From Heterodontus francisci (Eukaryota), in contig NC_090417.1 of assembly GCF_036365525.1 (NCBI RefSeq), positions 310,001 through 374,000 of the forward strand: a stretch of DNA of 64,000 bases, read 5' to 3'. Within the stretch, counting starts at the first letter, position 1, and each line of letters starts with the position of its first letter. The notes under the pieces were generated by a model. The model was not told the DNA's origin. It worked only from the letters and a program-made list of their open reading frames with translations, and searched no databases. Both the position numbers and the translations under genes were made by a program. Below are positions 16,420-53,698 of the stretch, one piece after another.

Positions 16420-19320
16420 TAGTGCAAACGCGTCCAGTGCACACGGTGCACAACACATCCAGTGCAAACTGACCCAGTGCACAGCACACCAAGTGCACAG
16501 CACACCCAGTGAACAAGACACCGAGTGCAAACACACCAAGTGCAAACACATTCAGTGCAAACCGACACAGTGCAAACAGACCCAGCTCACAACACACTCG
16601 GTGCAAATGCACCCAGTGCAAATCACATCCAGTGCCCAACACACCCAGCACTACCACATCCAGTGCAAACACACCCAGTGCACGCATGAAAACTGACCCA
16701 CACACAGTGCACAACACACCTAGTGCACAGTGCACAACACATCCAGTGCAAAACACACCAAGTGCACAACACACCCTAGTGCATAACACACCCAGTGCAA
16801 ATGCATCCCAGTACACAATACAAGGGCACAACACACCCAGTGCAAACACACCCAGTGCACAACACACCCAATGCAAAAACACCCCAGTGCACAGTACACC
16901 CAGTGCAAACACACCCAGTGAACAACACAAGCGCACAACACACCCAGTGCAAACATATACCATGCACAACACAGGGAACAACACACCCAGTCTACAACAC
17001 ATCCCGTGCAAACACACCCAGTGCACAACACACCCAATGTAAAAACACCCCAGTGCACAGTACACCCAGTGCAAACACACCCAGTGAACAACACAAGCGC
17101 ACAACACACCCAGTGCAAACATATACCGTACACAACACAAGGGAACAACACACCCAGTCTACAACACATCCCGTGCAAACACACCCAGTGCTCAACACAC
17201 CCAGAGTAAACACACCCAGCGCACAACACACCCCAGTGCACAATACAACCAGTGCAAACACACCCAGTGCACAACACAAGTGCACAACGCACCCAGTGCA
17301 AACATACCCAGTGCAAACACACCCAGTGCACAATACACCCAGTGCAAACACACCCAGTGCACAACACAAGTGCACAACACACCCAGTGCAAACATACCCA
17401 GTGCACAACACAAGTGCACAACTCATCCAGTGCAAACACACCCCAGTGCACAGTACACCCAGTGCAAACACACCCAGTGCACAACACAAGTGCAAAAACA
17501 CACCCAATGCACAACACATCCAGTGCAAACACACCCCAGTGCACAACACAAGTGCACTATACACCCAGTGCACAACACATCCAGTGTAAACACACCCAGT
17601 GCACAGCACAACCAGTGCAAACACACCCCAGTGCACAATACACCCAGTGCAAACTCACCCAGTGCACAACACACCCAGTGCACAACAGATCCAGTGCAAA
17701 CAGCCAGTGCACAACACAAGAGCACAATACATCCAGTGCGCAACACACTCAGTTCACAACACATCCAGCGCAAACACACACAGCGCAAACACACCCAGTG
17801 AACAACACAAGTGCACAACACACCCAGTGCAAACACACCCAGTGCACAACATACCCAGTGCAAGCACATCCAGTGCACAACATACCCAGTGCAAACACAA
17901 CAAGTGCAAAACACACCAAATGCAAGCACACCCAGTGCACAACACACCAGTGCAAACACACCCCAGTGCACAACATATCCAGTGCAAGCACACCCAGTGC
18001 AGAACACACCCAGTGCAAACACACCCTGTGCACAACACACCCAGTGCAAGCACACCCAGTGCACAACACACCCCAGTGCACAATACACCCATTGCAAACA
18101 CACCCAGTGCACAAAACACCCAGTGCACAACACACCCAGTGCAAGCACACCCAGTGCACAAAATACCCAGTGCAAGCACACCCAGTGCACAACAGACCCA
18201 GTGCACAACACACCCAGTGCAAACACACCCAGTGCACAACACAAGTGCACAACACATCCAGTGCACAACACACCCAGTGCAAACACACCCAGTGCACAAC
18301 ACAAGTGCACAACACACCCAGTGCCAACACTCCCAGTGCACAACACACCCAGTGCACAACACACCCAGTGCAAACACACCCAGTGCACAACACACCCAGT
18401 GCACAACACACCCAGTGCAAACACACCCAGTGCACAACACAAGTGCACAACACATCCAGTGCAAACACACCCAGTGCACAGCACAAGTGCACAACACACC
18501 CAGTGCAAACACACCCGGTGCACAACACACCCAGTGCACAACACACCCAGTGCACACACACCCAGTGCACAACACACCCAGTGTAAGCACACCCAGTGCA
18601 CAACACACCCAGTGCAAGCACACCCAGTACAAACACTCCCCAGTACACACACACCCCAGTACACAACATACCCAGTGCACAACACACCCAGTGCAAACAC
18701 ACCCAGTGCAAACACACCCAGCGCACAACACACCCAGTGCAAATACACCCAGTGCAAGCACACCCAGTGCACTACACACCCAGTGCACAACACACCAAGT
18801 GCAAACACACCTAGTGCACAACACACCCAGTGCAAACACACCCAATGTACAACACACCCAGTGCAAACATACCCAGTGCACAACACACCCAATGCAAACA
18901 TACCCAGTGCAAGCACACCCAATGCACAACACACCCCAGTGCACAATACATCCAGTGCAAACACACCCAGTGCACAACACAAGTGCACAACACATCCAGT
19001 GCAAACACACCCAGTGCAAACACACCCCAGTGCACAACACACCCCACTGCACAACACACCCAGTGCAAGCACACCTAGTGCACAACACACCCAGTGCTAA
19101 CACACCCAGTACACAACATACCCAGTGCACAACACACACAGTGCAAACACACCCCAGTGCACAATACACCCAGTGCAAACACACCCAGTGCACAACACAC
19201 CCAGTGCACAACACACCCAGTGCAAACACATCCAATGTACAACATAAGTGCACAACACACCCAGTGCACAACACATCCAGTGCAAACCGACCCAGTGCAC
19301 AACAAACCCAGTCCAAACAC
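16420..19320. repeat. AC-rich minisatellite, about 15-16 bp unit (CCAGTGCACAACACAC / CCAGTGCAAACACAC)
   Basis: About 2.9 kb degenerate tandem array. Source of all long ORFs between 16.3 and 19.5 kb. Confidence 0.95.
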
Positions 19321-19689
19321 AGCCACGACAGTAATAACTATTCAAACAAAACTGCTAGAAATCTGTTACTGTCAGAACGAAAGACAAACAGTGAAAGTAA
19401 AGTATCCAACTATTCTGCAGTCTAGCTGCTTCATCTTTCTTTATAACACAGCATAGGATAGATTACTAACCCAGAAGCAGAATGTTACAGCACAGAAACA
19501 GCTCTGCACCGCTGTTTCTAACACAGGAGCTAGTCCTGCTATCTCGCTCAAACCCAGCACCCTTTAATATTCCTTTTTCACATGTCTATCTCATTCTCCA
19601 TTAAAAGAGCTAACAAGACTTTACTTCATCAAGGTTTGTGCCAGGAAATTCCACCATCTAACCATCCTTGGAAAGACATGTTTCTTCTG

Positions 19690-36492: not shown

Positions 36493-37602
36493 CCTCTAAG
36501 GTAGTTCATGACAAACCCTCAATTAACATGACGCATGTCCTATTCTCAGGCTGAAGAGGGAGCCTCACACACGCCGATCAAAAGCAGTAACACCGTAAAA
36601 CCAACACATAACGTTAACACCAGTTGCCTGATACCAGCCACAATCGTTCAATGAGAATTATATTTACCCCGAACTGACACGCAATGCTGAAAATAATTGG
36701 GGAAGCTGTTCAGAAGTGAAATATTTTACTTATACAATTTTCTAAAATAAAAACGGAACAGGAAGAATTATTTCAAACTCTAATCCGAATAAAACTGAAC
36801 CCTGAGACTGCCCTCCTTCGATGTTGCAACATTCAGGAAACAGACGGGTTATTCCAAAAGTCAAATCCCACTTCATCATTGTTCTACAGGACATGTCAAA
36901 GAGTATGGCCGACGGATTTTACACACGCACACCAACATTCCTAGTCTATGACAAAACTGTTTGGCCAGTTGTTGCAATCTGGAGGAGCAAAGCCCCTCTG
37001 TAGTGATACAGAGTCAAGCGGCTCCCAGCTTTGCAGCAATCTGAATGAACGGCAGCCGAAACGTCACAGGCGGTTTTTACACTTGGACAAAAAAAGAAGC
37101 AAGGTAAGAGAAACACAATGCGATTTGTAACATCCTGGGGGAATAATGCCCCCAAGGGTCCCACAAACAGAATGCACAGATAAAGCTGAGAACGGGGGAG
37201 TGGAGGGGGGGGGGAATGATGTTTAAATGAGTCGGTGACATCCCCAAGCACATCAGAGAATTGCATTCTTTCAAACGAGTCATTTCCATGAAAATATTCC
37301 TGGCAACACACACCCCTCCCCACCCACCCCCCCGCCGGAGTCAGTTGGCTGAGAAGTTACTGTAAACTTTTTCAAGTCAGCATTGGAGATCTTGCGGCCT
37401 GCGGACCCATCGAGACAGCTGGCTAATCAGTCTGAATACATTGTGATATCAGTGTGATCCGCACTTCCCAAACAGTTCAGCTTACAGGCTACTGTCAGAC
37501 TTAGCTTTAAATATTGCCGAGATCTTTCAGGTCGACCCGAGTAAGTCCCCGCTAACAATGGGCAAAGTGCCTATCTTTCGCGAATTTTCCCCCTGCCCCG
37601 GT

Positions 37603-40600
37603 TCATGCTCCTTTCTGACTGGGCAGACTTTCATCACTGTCTTCGCGTCTCTTCCAGATCTGTTGGTGAAACCAAAGAGTTTTTTTTTTAAAAAGAGCCA
37701 GGAGATATTTGGCTTACTCACTCTAACATTAACAGAGGAGTCACATTATTAACCTCCCGCATTATTCAACTTATAAATGTGGGTTCAAGCAACAGCAGCA
37801 CACATGATAATCCCACCGCCACTGGTGCATCAGTCCAGTTTCAGTAGCCTTTTAGACAAGGTGTATATAGTTGCAAGAACTGATGGGTTAGGTGAGAAAC
37901 TTGTAAATGTTGATGTTCAGACTGACTTGGGTGTACTTGTACAAGGAACACAGGGTGTTAGCATGTAGGTACTGCAAGCAATTCGGAAGGCAAACGGCCT
38001 GCTGTCCTTTATTGCAAGGGGACTGGAGTGCAAGAATTAAAAAACAAGGTCTTTCTACAATTGTTACAGGGCTTTGGTGAGACTACACCTGGAATACTGT
38101 GTACAGTTTTGGTCTCCAGATTTAAGGAAGCAGAGCGTGCTTGTTAATATTTCCTCACTGCCAATTTGATATCGGACAAAATGTTTGCATCTCACGCAGT
38201 AGCAGGAAAGCATTATGTATCTCACACTGCCACTGGTAATACCAACCTGAATGTAGGCCTCGGACAGGGTGATCATTTGTGGCAAGATGTCAGATACTTG
38301 TAGATCCTGAAGCTCATACCACTTCCCTGTGCCCTGAAAGAATTACACCAGAGGCTGTAACAGATTCAAGTCAACAGTATAGGGTAATTATCTACAGAAA
38401 CACGCAGCTATGAGTTTAATGGTCCAGAAACATTCCCGACTGCTAGCTATTGTTATTCCCTTCGCTTTGCTGAGTGCTCTACAAGGTCAAAGGGTCCCAA
38501 CAAAACATCAGCTTCCCTCTTACAGAGACTGGCTAAAAGGGAGAAAGCAGAGATTAGTAACAATCAAGACTTTGACATCAAATTACTAAATCTGCGGACG
38601 ACACCAAATTGGGAGGGATAGTCGACACCGAGGAGGACTGCATCACATTTCAAGACATTTGTAAACTTGAAGAATATGCACACAACTGGCAAGTGAATTT
38701 CAACATAGATAAGAATGGGCGATTGCATTTTGGTCAGAAAAACAGATCGTAGAGTACTTGGGAAATATGCCAAGTGGGGTGGAGGAGCAAAGGGATCATG
38801 AAATGCAAAACACTAACAGTTGTGAGACAAGTCCACAGGTCATGTATATTTCAAGCAATTCTATGTAAGATATGGTAGTCTAGGTGTCCAAGCTTCAGAC
38901 CTCAGCAAATCGCGTAATGAAACAAGTGAAAAGAAAAGGCCTGGTAATTTGTGAGCTGACACTGGGATGAACAACCACGAAAACTGTCAGATCGTCACAA
39001 AACCAGTCTGGGTCACAAACACTCTTCAGGAAGGAACTAGCCACTGCGACTCCAGCCCCTACAATCTGTGGTTGACTTAGGGCAACTCGGGACGGGCAAT
39101 AAGTAACACCAGGTCAAGTGTGACCCTCATTCGGAGAAGAAATAGAAAAACAAGGACGAAAGCTCAGCAATCCTGTCAATTATTGCACGATGCTCATAAA
39201 CAAACAATGGCAACTGATAAAGTACTGGATATCAGCAGCCCAAGAAAAAGGAGGAAAGAAAATTTGGAAGTGAGATGAATGATTAGAATTATGCAAATTA
39301 ACGCGAGACTTTTATTGTGCGGTGGTGTGTGGCTTTTATGGATTGTGTTTTGTCGAATTACGATCCACCTTCCTCTCACTGTGTCTGTGCGACGATTATT
39401 TGTCGAAATCACATTTTTACGTCTCCTCGGGCCAGTCAAACTCAATACTGCGGCTGCTGGCAATCTGAAATAAAAGGCCACCAAACCGAAATGTTAACTC
39501 TGTTGCTCTCTCCGCAGATGCTGCCAGACCCTGCGGAGCCATCGCTGGCATTTTTAGAAATGCCAGGAACTGTCAGAGCCTCATTCTCTGCATACTCACA
39601 TGATGTAGCACGTGGACCCGATACGCTCCCTCGCCCGGCTTCCCATCATGCACCACATTACCGATCAGGTCATAGGTTGTGTGTTTGTGTGTGGCCTGAA
39701 CCTCCTCAGACAGGTATTCCCTCAGATCAACATTCCTGAAGCACACATTTCAACAAACAAGTCAATTTTATCACTACGTTTCCACCCCTTGGGCTGGGGT
39801 GGAAGCAGACTGTTTCAGTCTGGCTCCATTACTAGATACAGCATTGAAACAGGCCCTTCAGCCCACCGAGTCTGTGCCGACCATCAACCACCCATTTATA
39901 CTAATCCTACATTGATCCCATATTCCTTACCATATCCCCACCTTCCCTCAATTCCCCTACCACCTACCTACACTAGGGGCAATTTACAATGGCCAATTGA
40001 CCTAACAACCTGCAAGTCTTTGGCTGTGGGGAGGAAACCGGAGCACCCGGCAGAAACCCACGCGGTCACAGGGAGAACTTGCAAACTCCGCACAGGCAGT
40101 ACCCAGAACTGAACCCGGGTCGCTGGAGCTGTGAGGCTGCGGTGCTAACCACTGTGCCACCCTGGGAACATTCCTTTAGAATGAGCACATAGCCAAGTGC
40201 TGCCGGTGGAACTGCACCCAGTAAAGCTGTAAACAGTAAAGGTTAAGTGTACACAGCTTACGTGATCGGGAAGTTGACAATGGTGGGATTCTTCTCGATG
40301 AAGAAGTTGTTCTTTGTGAATCTCTTGATGTAGAAAATGAGGTAAGGTGGGAGTTTCGTCAGCTGGAACCTCTTCAGGAAATTCTCCTTGTAGGTTTTAT
40401 ACTCCTGTAGAAAACAGGAAGAATGTTTACTGCAGTACCTGAACAGCCAGGAGGAGTTTGCATTTGTAGAGTCCTTCAAAATAAAATCAGGATTTTTGAG
40501 GAATGTCCTTGAAAGAAGGAAACCCACCTCCATCCTTACTCAGCAAGGGAACATTCTGCCCTTTGCAAACTGAGCAATGGATTCTTTCATAGCCACCTGA

Positions 40601-43600
40601 GACGGCAGACAGAGCCTCAGTTTAATGTGTCATCTGAAAGGCGGCACCTCTGACCAGTGCAGTACTCCCTCAGTATCGGCCTAGACTATGGGGTCAATTT
40701 TAAACAAGTATATAGGATCCTGGGCTTTATAAATAGAGGTATCGAGTACAAAAGCAAGGACATTATAGTAAACCTTTACAAATCACTGCTTAGGACTCAG
40801 CTGGTGTATTTTGCTCAGTTCCGGGGATAACATTTTGGGAAGGGTGTCAGGACCTTGGAGGAGATTGACCAAATTGGAACCAGGGATGAGACTTCAGTTA
40901 TGTGGAGAGTCTGGAGTTAGCTAGGTTTGTCCTCCTTAGAGCACAGCGGGTTAAGGGGAGATTTAGTAGAGACGTTCAAAATTATAAGGGATTTTAAGAG
41001 AGCAGCTAGGGAGAAACTGTTTCCATTGGCACAAAGTTTAGTCATCAGAGGACGCATATATAAGATAATTGGTAAAAATCCAGGGGGAAAATGAGTTTTT
41101 TTAAAATTAAAAACGCAGCAAGTTGTTGTGATCTGGAATAAAGATGAAAGCAGATTCAACAGTCAATTTCAAGAGGGAACTGTATGTGCACTTAAAAAAA
41201 AAAATAGAGAAACTGGCAGGGCTATGGGGAAAGAGCAGGGGAGTGAAACTAATGGGATAGCTCTTTCAAAAGTGCTATCACGAACACAAAGGGCCGTATG
41301 GCTTGCTTCTGTGCTGTCTCTGAATGGGGCTTGAACCCATGATCTCCTAACTCAGAGCCAAGCCTGACACCTAATAAATGGATACAACTCAAGTATGCAG
41401 CAGCACTGAAACAGCATGGTCACCGAATGCTTTTTTTTTTAAACACATGGTTAGCACAGTAAACTGCGAGAAGTAGACATTTGTTCAATCCTTTGATAGA
41501 AATGGCAATCTCTGCTGCGCAGGTAGAGTCGTACAGCATAGAAACAGGCTCTTCGGCCCATCGCGTCCATGCTGACCATAATGTCTATCTATACGAATCC
41601 CACCTGCCTGCATTAATTCCACCCCCCTCTATGCTTTGCTCATTCAAGTACCTGTCCAGATGCCTCTTAAATGTCGCTACTGTTCCTGCCTCCACCACCT
41701 CCTCAGGCAGCTCATTCCAGATACCCACTATTCTTAGTGTGAAACATTTACCCCTCTGATCCCCTTTAAACCTCCTCCCTCTCACTTTAAATCTATGCCC
41801 TCGAGTTTTAGTCACCCCTACCATGGGAAACAGACTCTGGCTATCTACCCTATCTATGCCTCTCATAATTTTATATACCTCTAACATGTCCCCTCTCAGT
41901 TTCCTTCGCTCCAGGGAAAACAGACCCAGCCTATCCAATCTCTCTTTATAACTCAAGCCCTCCAAACCAGGCAACATCCTTGTGAATCTCTTCTGCACCC
42001 TCTCTAGCTTAATCACATCTTTCCTGTAGTGCGACGACCAGAACTGCAAACAGTACTCCAAGTGCGGCCTAACCAACGTTATGTACAACTGTAACATGAC
42101 GTCCCAACTTGTACTCAATGCCTCGGCCGATGAAGGCAAGCATGCCATATGCCTTCTTCCCCACCCTGTCTACCTGTGTTGCCACTTTCAGGGAACTATG
42201 TACTTGCACCCCAAGGTCCCTCTGCTCAACAACAGTCCCCAGGGCCCTGCCATTCACTGTATATTTCCTGCCCTGGTTTAACATTCCCAAAATGCATCAC
42301 TTTGCACTTGTCTGCGTTAAATTCCATTTGCCACTCCCTTGCCCACTTTCCCAGTTGATCTATATCCTGTTGTAACCTTAGACAACCTTCTTCACTGTTT
42401 ACTATACCACCAATTTTAGTGTCATCTGCAAACTTAACAATCATGCCCCCTACATTCGCATCCAAGTCATTAATATATATGACAAACAACAGAGGGCCCA
42501 GCACCGATCCCTGCGGCACACCACTGGTCACCGGCCTCCAATCTGAAAAACAACCCTCCACTACCACCCTCCGCCTATCAGCAAGCCAATTTTGTATCCA
42601 ATTTGCTAGCTCACCCTGGATCCCATGAGTGAGTAGTTCAACTAATTCGGCTCCGTTTGCTAAGAATATTCAGTCATGACTCATTTTCCTGCACACCTTC
42701 TCTGTAATGCCATTGAACTTTGCCAAGATGTTGAAAAGCGGGACTTGTGGAATGATCAATTGCTCCTTCTCGTCTTTGTAGAGAGGGGCTGTGGGAAGGT
42801 CGAGGGTCAAGTACAAGAAGGTGGACTCTGTCATGGCTTCCTTGAACTCCTCCATTTCCAACAGTTGCTCTTTCTCCTCCGGCGTCTGTGTAAAGGATAT
42901 AAGCACAGTTAAAAGGGAAGCTTGGAACTAGAAATTTCATGAAAGTTTTGAAGAGCAGGGCAGGCCTACTGGCAGATGACTAATCTCCTTGCTCACTGCA
43001 TGACCGCAGGCTGAACAGTCGCAGGTGGAACCTTTGTTCCACCCATCCATCAATCCTGACAGGACGCAAGCTCAGCTTTCAAGGTGATGGGCAGGTTTTT
43101 AAATCATTCCCTCAGGCTTGCTGGAATCGCTCGGATCCCCTTTAAAAGGTGCGCCTGCCTCATTGCCATCTTCCTGACTCCGAAAAATCAATCAAATGCA
43201 AGCCACTTGTCCACTACTTCTCAACACATAACTTTCGATCATTAGGAAAAGGCCACTCGGCCTGTCTTTGTGATGTCAGCCCCACCGACCCACCTTTCCA
43301 AACCATCCATCAGTTCCTTTTCTGTCCATCTAACTCGTTCATCAGGGCATCCATAATGACCTTCCCTTGTAATTTATTCCACAATCCCAAAGTCCTCTGG
43401 CTAAGTAAGTTCTGCCTGACTATAAACAATGACCTGAGAGTTAAATCTGAATAAATGCTAATGAAATCTTGCAGAACGAGTCTCTGAACTTACTCCTTTT
43501 GGAGCTCTACACTGCATCAAACCCGTGCTGCACTTGACCCGAGAGAGATTAATAGGGCAGTGAAGAGGGATCCTTACTCTGCAATTGTACCTGCACTGGG

Positions 43601-46600
43601 AGTGTTTTGATGGGCCAGTGTAGAGGGAGCTTTACTCTGTATCTAACCCCGTGCTGTACCTGACCTGGAAGTATTTGATGCTAACCGGAGACGTTCTCCA
43701 TTCCCAGCATTAACCTTCAGGAGGTTTGAATTTTTAAAAGTGTTTAAAAAGCGGAAGTTTTAAACTAGAACCAGTTCAATTTATGAAACTGGCAGAACCA
43801 GTCGGGATTTAAATTACTGGCGACTTGATGCCACCATGTGGTTAGAAGGGGAACTGCACCTGAAAACATCAAACTAATGGTGGCCAGGGGTGAAAACCAG
43901 GAGAAGCCTGTGAGCTTAACCCCCGCAACGACTGCAAAGACAACACCACCATCTGCGATGCTGTGTTCTTGCAGCACTCAGCTTTGCCACTGCTCCTGCC
44001 AAGAGGAGCCTGTGAACTCCTGAACCACACCTCCCGGGGATCCGTCCACAGCTCACCAGAGTCACAATCTGTCCTGTCCTGTTGACCAGAGGAAAAGAGA
44101 AGGAAAAGCAAAAAACACAATAGAGAGAGCAGCAATGACAACGAAGGGAACTAACCAGGTCTGGCGGAGGCAGCTTCTTTGTAAATATCCGCATGGATCC
44201 CTGAAACACACAGTTGATAATGGCTGCAAACAAGGAATACGTTTCAACATTAAGGAACCACGTAGAATGAGAGAAAGACCACAGTAAGACCAGAGTCACC
44301 AGGGGCTCTGCACTACAAAAGGACCCTGGATCATTTTTCCCCTCCCTCGCCCGAAGGCGGCTCCATCGAGATGAGCTGAAACTCAGCACAGGTCACGGAA
44401 TTGAACCCAGGACCTTGGTCATCAGTTGTTGCATTAACCACTGAGACATGGCCATCTGGCAGCGCTTCCAGAACTAGGCGGTAAGCTTATCGCCGTCTAC
44501 GCGACCGGGTTGTGTTAACCTCTCGAGACTCCGAAAGTGATATATATTTCCACAGGAGTGACGCCGGCATTGCAGTGAAGTGAGGCGGTGGGCATGGGTG
44601 AAATTTTCACAGCGTGCCCCTCTGAACTGTGGGGGAACGCGACGATTGTGTACACGGTTAGGAGTGCCCAGCTCCTGTTGCTACTCACTCTTCTTCTTCT
44701 TGTTCCCTCCGAGTGCCATGTGGAGTGCATTTAGGAACCAGGAGAGGAAGTCGACAGCATCACCTGCGACAGCAAAAATTCCACTGTGACCATCGGCTGC
44801 TAACATTTCTGGGAATTACTGAAGTAACTGTCTAATTCGAGAACATTGAAATTAAAACAGAAACACTCGGACAGCTGGAAGTGAGAAGAGAGCTCAAGAC
44901 AAACACTGCCCTTCAAAGAGGAATCCATTATGTGCTATGTCCGGTTTCCAGACATTTGCACATGAAAGACCCTCTTATTATTCTGAAACTTCGAACACTG
45001 GAGTGTGAGTGAGGAGCTTTTAAAGCTGATTTAAACTGCTCCTAACGTGCACCGAGTTCGTACTTGAACCCACATCCTTGAGACTCAGAGGCAAGAGTGG
45101 TGCCAACCGAAGCATGACTAGAAAGAAAAGTCCAGCACTCAGGAGTGAATGACTTCTGTGCAGCAGCTGATTTAAACTCCCCAGAGGATCAGACTCACTA
45201 ACCCTTCTCTCTAGGCCCGAAGGCAGCCCACCTTTGAAGTCGAGCAATAATGGAGGTAATCCCGAAAAAGGTTCCACTTGAATACTTACCCCATTCCAGT
45301 AAATAAGTAACACCACCCCCACAATTCAGAAATAAGCGTCTCCTTAACACAAAGCTTGGTCAAGCCGAACTGACTGGAAAACGTTGACTTCATCACTAAT
45401 GGCTCACTAGCTCACCCTGTTTAGTAATCTGGAACCGCTTCTTGCTGCACAGGACCACAGCCTGCAACATCTCATGTGGGGAAACGTGAGCCTTGAAGTT
45501 CCGGGGATTCCTCAGTTTTCTCATCAACTCGCCAAATCTTTGCACCAGCAGGAACATGATGTCGCCTGGAGGCCGCTTGATATCCTTGTAGTTCTCTTCC
45601 TCCAAGAAATAGTTCCGTAGAGGAGGCACGTTAGACAGAGTCTGAAAGAGAAGCAGGGACAGTGAAGGAGACACATTAGACAGAGTCTGAAAGAGAAGCA
45701 GGGACAGTGAAGGAGACACATTAGACAGAGTCTGAAAGAGAAGCAGGGACAGTGAAGGAGGCACGTTAGACAGAGTCTGAAAGAGAAGCAGGGACAGTGA
45801 AGGAGATACATTAGACAGAGTCTGAAAGAGAAGCAGGGACAGTGAAGGAGGCACGTTAGACAGAGTCTGAAACAGAAGCAGGGACAGTGAAGGAGGCACA
45901 TTAGACAGAGTCTGAAACAGAAGCAGGGACAGTGAAGGAGATACATTAGACAGAGTCTGAAAGAGATGCAGGGACAGTGAAGGAGACACATTAGACAGAG
46001 TCTGAAAGAGAAGCAGGGACAGTGAAGGAGACACATTAGACAGAGTCTGAAAGAGAAGCAGGGACAGTGAAGGAGACACATGAGACAGAGTCTGAAAGAG
46101 AAGCAGGGACAGTGAAGGAGATACATTAGACAGAGTCTGAAAGAGAAGCAGGGACAGTGAAGGAGACACATTAGACAGAGTCTGAAACAGAAGCAGGGAC
46201 AGTGAAGGAGACACATTAGACAGAGTCTGAAAGAGAAGCAGGGACAGTGAAGGAGACACATTAGACAGAGTCTGAAAGAGAAGCAGGGACAGTGAAGGAG
46301 ACACATTAGACAGAGTCTGAAAGAGAAGCAGGGACAGTGAAGGAGACACATTAGACAGAGTCTGAAAGAGAAGCAGGGACAGTGAAGGAGACACATTAGA
46401 CAGAGTCTGAAAGAGAAGCAGGGACAGTGAAGGAGACACATTAGACAGAGTCTGAAAGAGAAGCAGGGACAGTGAAGGAGACACATTAGACAGAGTCTGA
46501 AAGAGAAGCAGGGACAGTGAAGGAGACACATTAGACAGAGTCTGAAAGAGAAGCAGGGACAGTGAAGGAGACACATTAGACAGAGTCTGAAAGAGAAGCA

Positions 46601-49600
46601 GGGACAGTGAAGGAGACACATTAGACAGAGTCTGAAACAGAAGCAGGGACAGTGAAGGAGACACATTAGACAGAGTCTGAAACAGAAGCAGGGACAGTGA
46701 AGGAGACACATTAGACAGAGTCTGAAAGAGAAGCAGGGACAGTGAAGGAGACACATTAGACAGAGTCTGAAACAGAAGCAGGGACAGTGAAGGAGACACA
46801 TTAGACAGAGTCTGAAACAGAAGCAGGGACAGTGAAGGAGACACATTAGACAGAGTCTGAAAGAGAAGCAGGGACAGTGAAGGAGATACATTAGACAGAG
46901 TCTGAAAGAGAAACAGGGACAGTGAAGGAGACACATTAGACAGAGTCTGAAAGAGAAACAGGGACAGTGAAGGAGACACATTAGACAGAGTCTGAAACAG
47001 AAGCAGGGACAGTGAAGGAGACACATTAGACAGAGTCTGAAAGAGAAGCAGGGACAGTGAAGGAGATACATTAGACAGAGTCTGAAACAGAAGCAGGGAC
47101 AGTGAAGGAGATACATTAGACAGAGTCTGAAAGAGAAGCAGGGACAGTGAAGGAGACACATTAGACAGAGTCTGAAAGAGAAGCAGGGACAGTGAAGGAG
47201 ACACATTAGACAGAGTCTGAAACAGAAGCAGGGACAGTGAAGGAGACACGTTAGACAGAGTCTGAAAGAGAAGCAGGGACAGTGAAGAAGACACATTAGA
47301 CAGAGTCTGAAAGAGAAGCAGGGACAGTGAAGGAGACACATCAGACAGAGTCTGAAAGAGAAGCAGGGACAGTGAAGGAGACACATTAGACAGAGTCTGA
47401 AACAGAAGCAGGGACAGTGAAGGAGATACATTAGACAGAGTCTGAAAGAGAAGCAGGGACAGTGAAGGAGATACATTAGATAGAGTCTGAAACAGAAGCA
47501 GGGACAGTGAAGGAGACACATTAGACAGAGTCTGAAAGAGAAGCAGGGACAGTGAAGGAGACACATTAGACAGAGTCTGAAAGAGAAGCAGGGACAGTGA
47601 AGGAGACACATTAGACAGAGTCTGAAACAAAAGCTGGGACAGTGAAGGAGATACATTAGACAGAGCCTGAAACAGAAGCAGGGACAGTGAAGGAGATACA
47701 TCAGACAGAGTCTGAAAGAGAAGCAGGGACAGTGAAGGAGACACATTAGACAGAGTCTGAAACAGAAGCAGGGACAGTGAAGGAGACACATTCGACAGAG
47801 TCTGAAAGAGAAGCAGGGACAGTGAAGGAGACACATTAGACAGAGTCTGAAAGAGAAGCAGGGACAGTGAAGGAGACACATTAGACAGAGTCTGAAAGAG
47901 AAGCAGGGACAGTGAAGGAGGCACATTAGACAGAGTCTGAAACAGAAGCAGGGACAGTGAAGGAGACACATTAGACAGAGTCTGAAACAGAAGCAGGGAC
48001 AGGTGAAGTCCTTGAGATGTCTAAGAGAGCATGGAAAAGAAAGTCGTAGCAGGTTAATTGCCCAATTAGAGGCAGAACAAGCTCTAAAATTTAACGCAAA
48101 CCCTCAAGCATGTCCCACTCATCTTTCTGCCATATTGCCGACATGCACAGCAGCTGCAATTTACTCTTCCCTTTTCCACCCCGTTCTACACCTTCCTCTC
48201 CATTATATCCTGATTCCTCGGCAGAGTACATTTCCACATCCATTTGTCATAGCTGAACGCAGGCAGGCTCTCTGAATGGGGAGGACATCACCTAATTTGA
48301 ACCTTTCCTCGTCCTACCTCCTTATACTTGCACTGGCCAGTGGGTTCAACATTATAATCAGGTGTAAGGGTCCAGGTCGATTTTTCTGAAGGCATACTGA
48401 TGGTATTTGTCGCATTCCCAGATAACAGCCAACTCAACACAGGCCAGGTATCAAACCTGGAACCAACTGTTCTCACGGCTCAGCGGATCACTGCCTTGAG
48501 CAGCCAAGAGCAGGCATCATTCATAATGTCCATCTCCTTACCTGCAGCACCACATTAGCATAGTCGTTGGCCTTGATGTTGTTGAGTCCTACAATTCCTG
48601 GCAGATAGGTGGTCCCGTCGTAGGCCCGAGACAGTTTGGACTGTTTGTCCAGGTTTGCAATGTGCTGCTTCATGAAGGTTGGTTTCAGTACGTACTGGAA
48701 AACAGAGGAGACTATTACACTCCTCACTCACTAAAACAGGGAGCAATTCAAGCACCAGACGCAATGAAAAACACAACACAGCGCTGTTCAATATTACTGA
48801 AAGGGATGGCCCTCAAATAGCACAGCCAAATGTGAAGGGCCATCATCTAATGCGAGTTCACAACAGCAGGAGTGAGGGCTTGCTGAGGGTTTCCTGAAAA
48901 CTAGCACAGGAAGCACCACTAGTGCAAGGCCGCAACAGGATCTGCTTATCCGCTATGATTGATGCTTGTATCTTCTCAGTCAAGGCGTTCCCAGAAAACT
49001 GGAGATTTCTTGAGTGAAAGAACCAACTTCCATTTCACAGAGACCTTTATAGCCCTTTGGGCCAATGAAAAACTTGTCATGTAGCCCTCACCACCTGCCT
49101 GTATACTTACTGAAACCTGATATACTCTCCGGTAACACAAGAACTAGCTGCACATAGATAGAAAGAGCGAAACATCAGTCATTTTGCCTCCCACAGTGGC
49201 TCCGTGAGTAACAGAAGCACACAGATAAAGAGCTTGGCGTATTTGCCGAGTTAACTGATTTCAGTTTGAGCAGGATTAGGGACTCTTGAACTGCTCTCGG
49301 TGCCAGTCAGCTGAGGGGGAATCAGTTCGGGATGCCTGTCCGCTGACCAGAACCTAGCAGTCATGAGGTGAGGACAGGGTCAAGTGGTCAGCACTCTGCG
49401 AGCGGGGCGTAACCCGCGAGGATTGGTTACTTGGGCAAGATCCTGGCTGGCTATTCCACCTGTGGAGCTGTAACCCCAAGCATGTCACAAGCTTCACAGA
49501 AAGGGAGAAACTATAAAAAAAGAAGAAAGAAAGTCTTGCAAAATTCGCACTCCGGCTCACACAGATGTCGTACTGAAGAACATCCAGGGCCAAAGTAACT

Positions 49601-52600
49601 GTATCGCAGCAATAGTCAAAGTCTTCAGATAAAGAGTGGGAGGGGAAGAAAGTGGGAAGCCACTTTCACAGACCCCTGCTCTCTGGTGCCAGACACTTAC
49701 CGTGATGTCCTCAAGGGAGGAGTCAATGATTTCGTAATTGTCTGGTAGGCAGTAGAACTTTAATGTGTGTAGATTCAGAAAGACGTGGTGCCCAACCTGA
49801 ACACTATGAATGTTTGCATACGACTTCAGGCCTCGTCCTAAGAAAAAAACAAATCACTTCCAGTCAAGCGTACATCATTGTTATTCTCCCCACCGACTCA
49901 CTCTAGGGTGCGGTACCATGGGCACCAGCCTTGCCCACGAGACCACCCCTCACCTGTGAGCCCAGAAAGCAAAGGTTGAACGGCAGTTCAACCACAAAGA
50001 GCATCTCAGCCAAACTAGACATTGCCTGTCGAGCAAACATCCATCAAAAAATCCCACTACAACGGATAGACCTGATCAATTTAAACCCCCTTCCCAACTG
50101 CTGCGTGCCAGGATTAAATCCAGCGGCCAATTTGCGCACAGCAAGCTCCCACAGAGAGCAATGACACCCTCCTTACAAAAATCTCTACAACCAATGCTCA
50201 GTCTGACAGAGTCAGTAAAAGGATGCTTGCAGACTCAAGTCAAACGACAAGAGACCAACAGCGTCAGCTCCTGAAATCCTGTCCGTAACCATGCTGTCGC
50301 TACCAGAAGGTGGGTCACGGAACTGTAATCTGTGAAACTGTCAAAGCTTTGGAGAGTAACCTTACCTTGGAAGTATTTGCCACACACTAGGCAGGCATAG
50401 ACATTGATGTGGGATAGGGAGACGGAGCACAGCTTTTCAAAGTCAAAATCCAGCACGCTCCTGTTTACAGAAATCGACAAACGGCTGTCAGACCTTGAAT
50501 GTCATCCAATCAGTAAATAAGATCTCAGTACCCCCTAAAGGGGCTCCCTCTACGCTGCCCCCATGAACACACGCAGATTACGACAGTACAATTAAATAGC
50601 TTAGTTGTAGCAATCCCGCCTCTGAATCAGGTTCGAAGCTGCTCGATGATCGGAAACGGGAGCTCCGACTCTAAATTCTGGACTGACGTCCAGCGGGCAT
50701 ACTTGGAACTTTCAAGGCGCAGACAACGACATCACGGTATGTGGGAACCAAGGTCCAGCTTAGCCGTAATCTAACTGAAAAGCAGGGCAGTCGTCTCCTG
50801 GTCCATGTACACTTAGTCTGAGCCATAGAACAGCTTTGCTTGCTGCAGCGGTGAGACTTTTCCATTCACCACATCAGCCATCCTGCAGCTTCTCTCTCAG
50901 GGGGCAGGGAGTACAAGAAGGAGGAAGTTATGATACACCTGTATAAAACATTGGTTCAGCCTCAACTGGAGTATGACACCCAGTAGCTGTTTTTAAAAAG
51001 TATAGGAGACTCTAAGGAGACAAAGATGGCTCACGCTCACCGATTAATAGTGTCCAGATAGGGGCAGTGTCTGCTTCGATCATCCTCCTCCTCCTGATCA
51101 TGAATTCTCGCAATCTTTGAAGCTACTGGGTAGAAGAATGTACATTAATAGAGCATTTTGAGATATCCTGATGCATATCACAGCCAATTAGATTACTTCC
51201 CAAGTGTAGTCACTGTTGTAATGTAAGAAAACCTGGCAGCCAATTTACAAACTGCAAGGTGGGGTGAGATTTACAACAAGCAGATGTGAATCCTTGTTCA
51301 CTAACTTCCAATTATAAGGCAAAGAAACCAGCCAAACGGGTTTTCTTAGGTTTAAAGAAAAAAGGTTGAACTTTATTAAACTTAAACTCGTATTTGGTTA
51401 ACGCCTATGGATATGCGATGCGCCCACACTAGCATGCATAGAGGACACACACGTGCAGATAGAGACAGAAAAGAGCAGAAGAAATAAAGTGGAAAAGTTT
51501 CAGGCAATATCTGAAGATGGTTTTGGTTACTGTTCTTCGAACTCGCTGTAGAGTCCTTGATTGTAGGTAGGTCTTGCTTTTCGTTGGGGCCCATTATTCT
51601 TCTTAAACCTTGTTCAATGTAGGAGACTTTTCTCTCTTGAAGTTCATGTGTCCTCAGTGGGTTCAGAGGCTTGCGAGAAAGAGATGGGAGCAGACAGGAG
51701 AGGTCTTCTCACTCCAGGAGCAAACAGTCTTTTCTAGTTCAAAACTCTTTGTACAATTCAGAAAAACCCAGGTTGCCAAGCAGGTTAGTCATGTGACTAG
51801 CTGGTCTGACCACATGTGTTTGTGGATTCTCTTGTCTTAGCCTCTACTTACACACAATACCTGGTGCTCAAAGTCCATTGTGGGTTAAATTTTTTGTCCC
51901 TCCAAGCATTGAGTGTTAGCTTACAAGTGTTTTTTCCACCCACGGCTGATCTGTTTAACAAGTCATTTCCTCACACCTGCAACAGTTTAAAATCAATATT
52001 CACATGACAAAATTAATATGCCTCATTCTGGGCAGGTCGCGGCGGGGTTGGAGGGGTGCGGTCTGTATGACATTCGTTGAAGTCCCTGACTGGGGCTTGA
52101 ACTCACAACACGCTGACTCAGAGATAAGAGCACCATCATTGAGTGCACCCTGCACCCACTTGAAAATTGCACCATTTAATTCATATTACCTCTGCTCATT
52201 CTTCCCAGCAAAATGTGTCACCCCACACCGCGCTGCATTAAACTTCATCTGCCATGTGTCCGCCTATTTCACCAGTTTATGTCCTCCTAAAGTCTTACTA
52301 TCCTCCTCATTGCTTATGACATTCCTGAAGTCTGTGTTATCTGCAAACTTTGAGCTTATGCCCTGTATACCCAAATCCAGGTCTTCAATATAGATTGAAA
52401 AGAGCAGTGTACCGACCGCAGGGAAACACCAGCGTATACACCCCTCCAGTCTGAAAAACCTCCTCTGCATTTTGTTGTATTTAGCTTGGTTCTCAACTGT
52501 ATTAAAACCTTACATGAATCGCAAATCTTCTTCAGTTTCATTTTAATCTCTACATCCTTAGTCATCCAAGATGCTATTGCTTTGGATGCTCTTCCTTTCC

Positions 52601-53698
52601 CCCACTTGGGATTGTAACTGAACAATCGCCTCTTTGAAAGCCTCCCATTGTTCAATTACAGATTTTCCGACAAATGTTTGATTCCAATCCACCTGGGATA
52701 GATCTGTTTTTAACTAACTGAAATTACCCCTCCTCCAGTTAAGTATTTTTACACTTGATTTTTTGTTTCCTTCTCCCTTTCCACAACTACTCGAAACCTG
52801 ATGTCTACTGTGATCGCTATTCCCCAAATGCTCCCCCAATGAAACATGCTCCATTTGCCCCATCTCATCTCTTATTAGAAGATCGCATGGCATTTATCAA
52901 AGAGAAGGGCAGGGGGTTTGGGACTCCTGGTCAACATTAATGAGCTTGTGCTACAGATTACAGCTTCGCCAAGCAAACACTATATCGGCTGGGTAAACCG
53001 GCTGCTACCGGTCAGGGACCGAAGAAGGGAAACACAGAACTGGTTTCTGAGTCACAGCTTACCACACCTCGCAAAAGCATCACACACAGTGAGTTAATGT
53101 GATGGCACTGCACCAGTGCGACCGCAGGCCCCCTCCCCAAGCCAGGTGGCACTGCGCCAGCAAGGGTGCACCCTGAGCCAGGTGTGCAAGACTCCCGGAG
53201 CCAGGTGGCACTGCACCAATGCAACCTCCCCCACCCAGAGCCAGGTGGCACTGCGCCGGCGCATGTCCCTTCCAACCGCCCCCCGCACCCCCCCCCAGGC
53301 GCAAGGTGGCACTGCGCCGGCGCAAGTCCCGTTCCCCCCCAGGCGCAAGGTGGCACTGCGCCGGCGCAAGTCCCGTTTCCCCCCCCCAGGCCAGGTGGTA
53401 CTGCGCCGGCGCAAGTCCCGTCCCGTTCCCCCCAGGCCAGGTGGCACTGCGCCGGCGCGCCGGGAGTTGCAGCGAACCCGGTGCTGGGGCCCCGGATCGG
53501 AAAACATTCTGGAACAAGGGCCGACCGGGGGCGGGGAGGGGGAGATACTGCCCGGCGCCCAGGTCCCGGCAACCGCTGACCCGGCGCTCACGACCCCCTT
53601 TCTCCCTGGTACCGGCGAGTCCGCCTCCCGCTCCCAGTACCTGGCTCCAGGTCCGCCTCATCCCCGCTATCCAGCTCCCGCTTCAACGCCGCCATCAT
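37603..53698 (-). CDS. USP39: U4/U6.U5 tri-snRNP-associated protein 2 (USP39, inactive USP with ZnF-UBP), 13 exons, about 502 aa using the proximal exon 6 acceptor
   Basis: Exons in transcript order: 53698-53641, 51125-51041, 50460-50366, 49837-49701, 48694-48542, 45641-45416, 44763-44689, 44223-44156, 42885-42697, 40404-40262, 39735-39600, 38333-38247, 37659-37603. Phases consistent. Peptides RHCPYLDTINRSVLDFDFEKLCS, GLNNIKANDYANVVLQ, LDLPTAPLYKDEKEQLIIPQVPL, EKNPTIVNFP and LPQMITLSEAYIQIWKRR match vertebrate USP39. Confidence 0.95.
39833..40160 (-). mobile_element. HE1-like SINE in USP39 intron 10
   Basis: Reverse complement of the 55147-55470 element. Confidence 0.8.
40560..40690 (-). mobile_element. 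Deu-domain SINE-like fragment
   Basis: Minus strand CTGAGGGAGTACTGCACTGGTCAGAGGTGCCGCCTTTCAGATGACACATTAAACTGAGGC resembles the DeuSINE core. A related fragment lies at about 28780-28900 (+). Confidence 0.5.
41523..42626 (-). mobile_element. Young 5'-truncated CR1 LINE (RT to 3' tail) in USP39 intron 9
   Basis: [22 protein letters not shown]...KFADDTKIG RT motifs, ORF2 C-terminus and 3' tail. Few frameshifts. Confidence 0.9.
43520..43685 (+). repeat. Short degenerate tandem repeat (GGGAGTGTTTGATGG...GTGTAGAGGGAGCTTTACTCTGTATCTAACCCCGTGCTGTACC)
   Basis: Two to three diverged units of about 60-70 bp visible. Confidence 0.5.
45621..48001 (-). repeat. 45-bp minisatellite, about 53 copies, spanning the USP39 intron5/exon6 junction
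   Basis: Minus-strand unit TCACTGTCCCTGCTTCTCTTTCAG|ACTCTGTCTAATGTGTCTCCT. CAG acceptors every 45 bp from 45642-45644 to 47982-47984, with no indels. Confidence 0.98.
51285..52072. mobile_element. LTR-like interspersed repeat in USP39 intron 1
   Basis: Layout resembles 7465-8371 and 57914-58999 (TTTATT, CA tract, AG-rich tract) and ends in TGACA. No TSD identified and boundaries are uncertain. Confidence 0.35.
53098..53462. repeat. GC-rich minisatellite (about 8 units with core AGGTGGCACTGCGCCGGCGCA) in USP39 intron 1
   Basis: Cores near 53103, 53143, 53201, 53241, 53303, 53348, 53391 and 53437. Confidence 0.85.

What the first reader, a model, noticed from the sequence alone, without database searches (positions are those of the whole stretch)
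45621..48001. Array of 53 in-frame 3' splice sites in USP39, a core splicing-factor gene
Seen: the 45-bp unit is the last 24 nt of intron 5 (pyrimidine tract plus CAG) joined to the first 21 nt of exon 6. The typical unit has only one AG, and the exon-derived CTAAT/CTAAC lies about 35 nt upstream of the next AG (TTCAC about 22 nt), so each unit looks like a complete branch point, tract and acceptor. 45 is a multiple of 3 and the USP39 frame has no stop across the array, so any acceptor gives an in-frame mRNA with 0-52 extra (TLSNVSPSLSLLLFQ) repeats, up to 780 aa, just after the pseudo-Cys box of the USP domain. Only the last acceptor (exon start 45641) gives the normal 226-nt exon. Known: USP39/Sad1 is an essential tri-snRNP protein, and many splicing factors autoregulate through unproductive splicing. 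Inference: the spliceosome must skip 52 near-identical decoys, or the array works as a copy-number-dependent dial on USP39 dosage that NMD would not catch.
Basis: partly seen in the sequence, partly recalled or inferred. Interest (0 to 1): 0.9.

Follow-up and report, generated by a model that had tools for sequence, protein, structure and literature searches.

The report
Splice-acceptor minisatellite in shark USP39
In a cartilaginous-fish splicing-factor gene, one intron-exon boundary is copied head-to-tail 53 times, yet the main RNA likely still uses only the true last copy, so this is likely a tolerated repeat of a kind already described in lancelets and humans, not a regulatory dial.

Summary
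There are 53 TTTCAG acceptors exactly 45 nt apart in front of exon 6 of an intact, single-copy USP39. Each unit has branch-point-like motifs and is stop-free in frame.

The dosage-dial idea is not supported. In two RNA runs one contig passes exon 5 and continues 838 nt, which equals exons 6-11 plus one shared base, so no extra unit. No exon 5-to-unit joint was listed in 4 of 4 runs. Contigs cannot exclude minor leakage. The in-frame, stop-free and AG-intact features are what chance gives.

This is an acceptor-side "mirage" minisatellite, as described in amphioxus (PMC3087553) and echoed by human CBS 844ins68 and the F7 VNTR. This scan found the same kind on other DNA (annelids, sea urchin, an elephant-shark-type genome).

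One twist: the coding copy starts with Thr where 132 of 132 homologues with the motif have Ala. 51 of the other 52 units share that base and one keeps the ancestral G. Repeat turnover may therefore have overwritten the first codon of exon 6 (about 35% likely). Interest is low to modest.

The parts
48542..48694 (-). USP39 exon 5 (153 nt, ends on a whole codon ...VLQ); donor CAG|GTAAGG at 48541
   Evidence: covered by spliced contigs in 4 of 4 runs
48009..48541 (-). unique part of intron 5; with the first tract copy the donor-to-first-acceptor distance is 560 nt (2900 nt to the last acceptor)
45621..48008 (-). 45-bp x 53 minisatellite: 24-nt intron-end tract with CAG plus 21 nt of exon-6 start; 53 acceptors at 47981-45n; found only at this locus in G000
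47622..47666 (-). unit 8: the only copy with G at exon position +1 (Ala codon, the state in all homologues with the motif)
45642..45686 (-). unit 52: nearest upstream acceptor; it would give a 271-nt exon (+15 aa) and is the predicted site of any leak; it also supplies the branch-point-like motifs and tract for the real acceptor
   Evidence: role inferred
45416..45641 (-). USP39 exon 6 (226 nt), starting TLSNVPPLR; purine-rich; donor AGG|GTGAGC at 45415; its acceptor is the one used in the dominant contigs
37600..53695 (-). whole USP39 coding span, 13 exons, 501 aa, one match in the genome for exon 6

Best explanation
The array is a minisatellite made of 53 copies of the intron 5/exon 6 junction of USP39, likely grown by slippage and unequal exchange and likely tolerated because exon definition would pick the last acceptor, so the main mRNA is likely normal in length. 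Origin (inferred): a short duplication at a 2-nt CT microhomology copied the end of intron 5 and the start of exon 6, and ordinary tandem-repeat turnover amplified it. Choice of acceptor (inferred from the established exon-definition model): the acceptors are near-identical, so sequence strength cannot decide. Only the last one is followed by purine-rich exon sequence and a donor 226 nt away; the others would define exons of 271 to 2566 nt that begin with pyrimidine-rich repeat, and the first acceptor is 560 nt from the exon-5 donor. Any leak is predicted mainly at unit 52 (+15 aa, in frame, not an NMD target) and is predicted to be noise. Possible side effect (about 35%): an exchange with its breakpoint between +2 and +11 of the last copy put the array's +1 A into the coding exon (Ala to Thr, position 176; human A242).
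For: Shown: 53 acceptors, exact period; unit pattern only here, 43 of 43 exact hits inside the array. X6 record 9 and X7 record 14 are single contigs through exons 2-5 that go on for 838 nt past exon 5; exons 6-11 sum to 837 nt, and exon 12 and intron 11 both start with G. Table 5 lists three ordinary GT-AG joints and no exon 5-to-unit-1 joint in any of the 4 runs, although 45 nt of unit 1 lay in the stretch. First 100 nt after an acceptor: purine 0.48 at the last, 0.37 at unit 52, 0.25-0.26 at two upstream units. No strong donor inside the array: best 5 of 9 consensus matches. Variants show no frame selection. Literature passages: amphioxus mirages do not disturb splicing (PMC3087553; PMC3902484); the CBS 68-bp intron 7/exon 8 duplication is spliced at the distal copy (PMC2630376); the F7 VNTR uses only the exon-adjacent donor (PMC1557585). 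For overwriting: 132 of 132 homologues with the motif have Ala; organism B's contig extends one base further into G whereas organism A's three do not; unit 8 keeps G with the array-type bases at +12 and +16.
Against: The 838 nt were identified by length only; their letters were not shown. Contigs drop rare variants (tool statement), and 1230 pieces and 142 loose ends were not displayed. The three organism-A runs are one sample, possibly the source of the assembly, and their RNA status is the tool's guess, though they skip introns. Three real donors of this gene also match only 5 of 9 plus one more, so the donor count is crude (4 of 12 real donors score 5). Local folding does not favour the last acceptor: tract unpaired probability 0.30 against 0.90 at unit 52. 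X5 depth over the first unit (3566) is above my simulated pre-mRNA-only range (2170-2890), while X7 is below its range (206 against 370-490). Against overwriting as special: this lineage has other private changes (T136M, S284C), the column varies in distant homologues (Ala 79, Thr 4 of 143 aligned, 150 examined), and one A-to-G reversion in unit 8 explains the pattern almost as well.
Confidence: 0.8

Rival explanations
1. Dosage dial: a regulated or copy-number-dependent share of transcripts uses upstream acceptors and makes in-frame, NMD-resistant, defective USP39, tuning the level of working protein.
For: All 53 AGs are intact and in frame, with branch-point-like motifs; 48 of 53 acceptors score like the real one. 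The junction lies at the end of helix 172-181 in the P0125 model, pLDDT about 98, so long insertions would likely harm the fold. A weak hint that organism B also carries the repeat would make it older than one species.
Against: Dominant contigs carry no unit and no joint to a unit is listed. AG retention (P about 0.53), lack of stops (P about 0.73) and the synonymous share (p=0.45) fit chance; a 3n period has a 1-in-3 prior. The 15 listed of 116 papers from the autoregulation search (listing only) showed no USP39 case by title; only 1 of the 15 mentions USP39.
Confidence: 0.07
2. Active silencing: the units are kept off by a repressor (for example a PTB-type protein on the CU-rich repeat) rather than simply losing out in exon definition.
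For: 7-9 TCTT/CTCT/TTCT motifs per 100 nt after three upstream acceptors against 4 after the last (motif choice recalled, crude).
Against: The same tract precedes the real acceptor. The F7 study excluded intronic auxiliary elements for its donor array (PMC1557585 discussion). No binding data here.
Confidence: 0.1
3. Assembly artefact: the array is inflated or invented by the assembler.
For: No spanning long read was seen; only one haplotype is in G000.
Against: 20 distinct unit types with 14 distinct variants. Summed contig depth over the first unit is 3566 (X5) and 206 (X7), where my simulation gives 13 and 2 for a single copy, 190-240 and 32-40 for 10 copies, and 2170-2890 and 370-490 for 53 copies. 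X6 shows 0 there, which does not fit, but its intron cover is patchy.
Confidence: 0.03

Closest known systems
Amphioxus 'mirage' minisatellites (globins BflGb6/BflGb9, Adh3, troponin C, PGBD5; PMC3087553 and PMC3902484, passages read)
   Same: Tandem copies of an intron/exon boundary; BflGb6 has the same polarity (3' end of intron plus 5' part of next exon); many units keep splice signals; normal splicing reported; concerted evolution within the cluster.
   Different: Here a jawed vertebrate, 53 copies (6 and 3 in BflGb6), every acceptor intact and in frame, in a core splicing gene. PMC3087553 describes boundary units as left out of homogenisation, whereas here the coding copy shares a derived base with 51 of 52 other units.
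Human CBS 844ins68 (PMC2630376, passage read; the primary papers Romano 2002 and Tsai 1996 were seen only as references)
   Same: Duplication of an intron/exon acceptor junction; the distal copy is used and normal mRNA results.
   Different: Two copies, 68 bp, out of frame; not a long array.
Human F7 intron-7 37-bp VNTR (PMC1557585, abstract and discussion read)
   Same: VNTR whose end unit spans the exon boundary; identical pseudo-sites stay silent; only the exon-adjacent site is used.
   Different: Donor side, 5-9 copies, tested by minigenes; explained by oriented scanning.
Unproductive-splicing autoregulation of splicing factors (poison exons; search listing only)
   Same: Host is a splicing factor.
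   Different: Those events add premature stops and are deeply conserved (abstract starts). This array is in frame, adds no stop, and no use of it was seen.

Membership tests
Mirage minisatellite | Head-to-tail repeat whose unit spans an exon-intron boundary of the host gene | tested here: met
Mirage minisatellite | Units keep splice signals | tested here: met
   53 of 53 keep TTTCAG
Mirage minisatellite | Host mRNA is spliced normally | tested here: met
Mirage minisatellite | Locus-specific origin, not a dispersed satellite | tested here: met
   43 of 43 exact pattern hits in G000 lie in this array
Mirage minisatellite / VNTR | Length varies between alleles or cells | not testable with these tools
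   One haplotype in G000; no long reads listed
USP39/Sad1 | zf-UBP plus UCH domain, pseudo-catalytic box, high identity to named orthologues | tested here: met
   Pfam zf-UBP E=5e-8 and UCH E=7e-5 on single exons, UCH just under its cut-off; exon 6 99% identical to a named shark USP39; 10 substitutions against Heptranchias P0125
Autoregulatory unproductive splicing | The alternative event is used at a measurable level | tested here: inconclusive
   Not listed in contigs; contigs cannot show absence
Autoregulatory unproductive splicing | Event adds a premature stop | tested here: not met
   All upstream acceptors are in frame and stop-free
Autoregulatory unproductive splicing | Element conserved across species and responsive to the factor's level | not testable with these tools

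The most novel reading that the evidence does not exclude
The array acts back on its own essential gene: repeat turnover has overwritten the first codon of exon 6 (Ala to Thr), and a share of transcripts that depends on copy number uses upstream acceptors to make in-frame, NMD-invisible USP39 forms, giving a heritable dial on a core splicing factor. The codon-overwriting half alone is about 0.35 likely (interest about 0.45); the probability given is for the functional dial.
Probability: 0.07. Interest if true: 0.7.

Novelty: new member of a known kind. Interest (0 to 1): 0.27.

Why it matters
As it stands it is a clean, large natural test of acceptor choice: 53 near-identical, in-frame 3' splice sites, where NMD cannot hide mis-splicing, so any leak could be measured directly from RNA. 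It extends acceptor-side mirages to a jawed vertebrate and an essential gene. If the Ala-to-Thr change came from the array, it would show that such repeats can rewrite the coding edge of the exon they copy. Neither point makes it a new kind of system.

Tried and rejected

Sequencing runs: no holder is on record as RNA; X5-X11 are guessed RNA and no long-read run was listed. 4 of 20 runs were laid, on 47937-51200, which holds only unit 1 and one more tract. X6 has no cover over the first unit, which is no evidence either way.

W-to-R in KLRNP as a sign of decay: rejected; 17 of 134 stored proteins have R, and all cartilaginous fish in the alignment do. Pseudogene or second copy: rejected.

Frame or AG conservation as selection: not significant. 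RNA structure favouring the last acceptor: not seen. An out-of-frame TTAG 40 nt upstream of acceptor 1 scores 0.2 against 6.3 in a crude 11-site matrix.

Neighbouring arrays as further mirages: the 16-bp array at 16446-19325 shows no acceptor or donor pattern; the 47-bp array at C47:238561-244139 belongs to a dispersed family.

Literature: 10 searches. None listed this USP39 array (one irrelevant hit) or a mirage that changed a codon (0 hits). The library lacks most subscription papers. A 2023 Cell paper on VNTRs and splicing (recalled) and Tsai 1996 were not held. PMC10078293 passages gave no acceptor-array case. No supplements were read; alignments in the supplements of PMC3087553 may bear on whether boundary units share derived bases. 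Earlier scan notes on this genome or look-alike stretches: none.
Full report
Observation. The array is there as described. TRF reports 45621-48008, period 45, 53.0 copies, 96% matches, no indels. On the minus strand there are 53 TTTCAG acceptors, all 52 spacings exactly 45 nt, with first exon bases from 47981 to 45641; 52 of 53 units have a single AG. Branch-point-like yTnAy motifs sit at -35 and -22 of acceptors 52 and 53. The USP39 frame is open across the array. A 27-nt unit pattern has 43 exact hits in the 6.0-Gb genome, all inside this array, so it is a locus-born repeat. The locus lies 0.36 Mb from the start of a 20-Mb contig. In 464 kb around it TRF found 11 arrays with period of 10 or more and at least 3 copies, three of them over 2 kb.

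Host gene. Thirteen exons give an open 501-aa USP39 with 10 substitutions against the Heptranchias protein P0125. Exon 6 has one match in the genome and is 99% identical to a named shark USP39. The genome is thus a cartilaginous fish; I did not identify it further. In an AlphaFold model of P0125 (mean pLDDT 90) the exon 5/6 junction falls near the end of helix 172-181, the pseudo-catalytic-box helix. Because a unit begins with TLSNV like the exon, one extra unit would in effect insert 15 residues in the following loop; its effect is untested.

Is the array real DNA? It has 20 unit types and 14 distinct variants. I laid 4 of 20 listed runs on 47937-51200, which holds exons 2-5, the unique intron and the first unit. 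Summed contig depth in the bin with the first unit was 3566 (X5), 0 (X6), 206 (X7) and 597 (X9), against intron depths of about 14-18 in X5 and 2-3 in X7. My k=31 unitig simulation, with my own placing rule and so good to an order of magnitude, gives 13 and 2 for one copy and 2170-2890 and 370-490 for 53 copies. A many-copy array is therefore present in the X5 and X7 data. X6 does not show it. Exact copy number and allele variation are untested.

Which acceptor is used? The runs are guessed RNA, but their contigs skip introns 2-4 at GT-AG joints. In X6 (record 9, 1297 nt) and X7 (record 14, 1599 nt) one contig passes exon 5 and continues for 838 nt that lie outside the stretch. Exons 6-11 from the last acceptor sum to 837 nt, and the next base is G in both exon 12 and intron 11. 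That matches a contig with no extra unit ending at the exon 11 branch. This is inferred from length; the letters were not shown. No joint from exon 5 to unit 1 was listed in any of the 4 runs, although X5 joints with 27-30 letters a side were listed elsewhere. Limits: contigs drop rare variants; from recall of such assemblers a +45-nt side path could be removed even at substantial frequency; 1230 pieces were not displayed; X5-X7 are one sample that may be the assembly's source. So the dominant mRNA is likely normal and minor leakage is open.

Signs of design? None found. Of 14 distinct variants 5 are synonymous in the USP39 frame (31% expected, p=0.45); no stop arising has P about 0.73 and the AG staying intact P about 0.53. 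Two of three frames of the array are open, and a 3n period has a 1-in-3 prior. One detail could matter: the unique intron end has one more C than the repeated tracts, so the first duplication may have been 46 nt and trimmed to 45. Without an outgroup intron this cannot be polarised.

Mechanism. 48 of 53 acceptors score the same as the real one in a crude matrix from the gene's 11 other acceptors, and local folding does not favour the last one. What differs is downstream context: purine share 0.48 in the first 100 nt after the last acceptor, 0.37 after unit 52 and 0.25-0.26 after two upstream units; the exon defined would be 226 nt, 271 nt, or up to 2566 nt. No strong donor lies in the array. 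Exon definition (established model, recalled; discussed in PMC1557585) predicts the last acceptor, with any leak at unit 52. This step is inferred, not shown. Active silencing of the CU-rich units is a rival I cannot exclude.

The Thr codon. All 132 of 134 stored proteins that contain the motif have Ala at the first exon-6 residue; this gene has Thr. In one search the organism-B contig, about 2% divergent in the exons, matches one base beyond exon 5 (G), while the three organism-A contigs stop at the exon end, so the mRNA of A carries a non-G base as in the genome and B keeps the ancestral G. In the array 52 of 53 units have A at +1; unit 8 has G together with the array-type bases at +12 and +16, while the coding copy has A with the exon-type bases. 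The simplest history without reversion is that A arose in the array, spread, and entered the coding copy by an exchange between +2 and +11. It needs the array to be older than the Thr change. The only support is a hint: X9 has depth 597 over the first unit and one record running over an end of the stretch, which must be this end because the last bin is fully explained by the mRNA contig. The alternative, Thr first and one reversion in unit 8, is nearly as simple. The change is probably mild: among 150 distant representatives, 143 aligned, with Ala in 79 and Thr in 4, and this lineage has other private substitutions.

What is known. Tandem repeats spanning exon-intron boundaries are named mirages in amphioxus; BflGb6 has the same acceptor-side layout, and RT-PCR suggested normal splicing (PMC3087553 passages; PMC3902484 passage). 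The human CBS 68-bp junction duplication is spliced at the distal copy (PMC2630376 passage, which calls the sites donors while its cited source is about 3' splice site selection). The F7 37-bp VNTR is the donor-side mirror (PMC1557585 abstract and discussion). I took the term mirage from earlier notes of this scan, which list several such arrays in other genomes, and checked it in the papers. Ten searches found no report of this locus or of a mirage changing a codon (most directly), in a library that lacks most subscription papers.

Verdict. A real, large, in-frame acceptor-side mirage in an essential gene; new member of a known kind; probably tolerated. Interest 0.27. The functional dial is about 7% likely, codon overwriting about 35%.

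Noticed in passing
G000:C47:238561-244139 (L024:8561 to L025:4139): A 47-bp x about 116 array whose minus-strand unit reads like an acceptor (branch-point-like ACTGAC, pyrimidine tract, CAG then G). A 34-nt pattern from it has 81,501 exact hits across the genome, so it is a dispersed satellite family that scatters acceptor-like runs widely. Its 3' flank looks like a CR1-type LINE fragment (recalled resemblance). Whether such arrays sit at exon edges elsewhere was not checked.
   Followed up: partly
window 47982-48010 against 47937-47960: The unique intron end has TCACC where the repeated tracts have TCAC; a 46-nt, frame-shifting first duplication may have been trimmed to 45 nt, or the first copy gained a base.
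   Followed up: partly
USP39 coding exons 5, 8, 9: Private substitutions against listed cartilaginous-fish proteins: T136M, S284C and T/S319A in P0125 numbering, besides A180T. W-to-R in KLRNP is shared by the cartilaginous fish aligned.
   Followed up: partly
proteins such as P0003: 5 of 134 stored USP39 proteins join exon 4 directly to exon 6 (in-frame loss of the 51-residue exon 5 with the pseudo-catalytic box).
   Followed up: no
window 16446-19325: Degenerate 16-bp x about 187 GT-rich array (79% matches), with no acceptor or donor pattern in the unit and no exon seen at its edges by eye.
   Followed up: partly
window 50116-50225 and 50880-50988: Short high-copy repeat pieces inside USP39 introns 3 and 2 draw very high contig depth in all four runs.
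   Followed up: no
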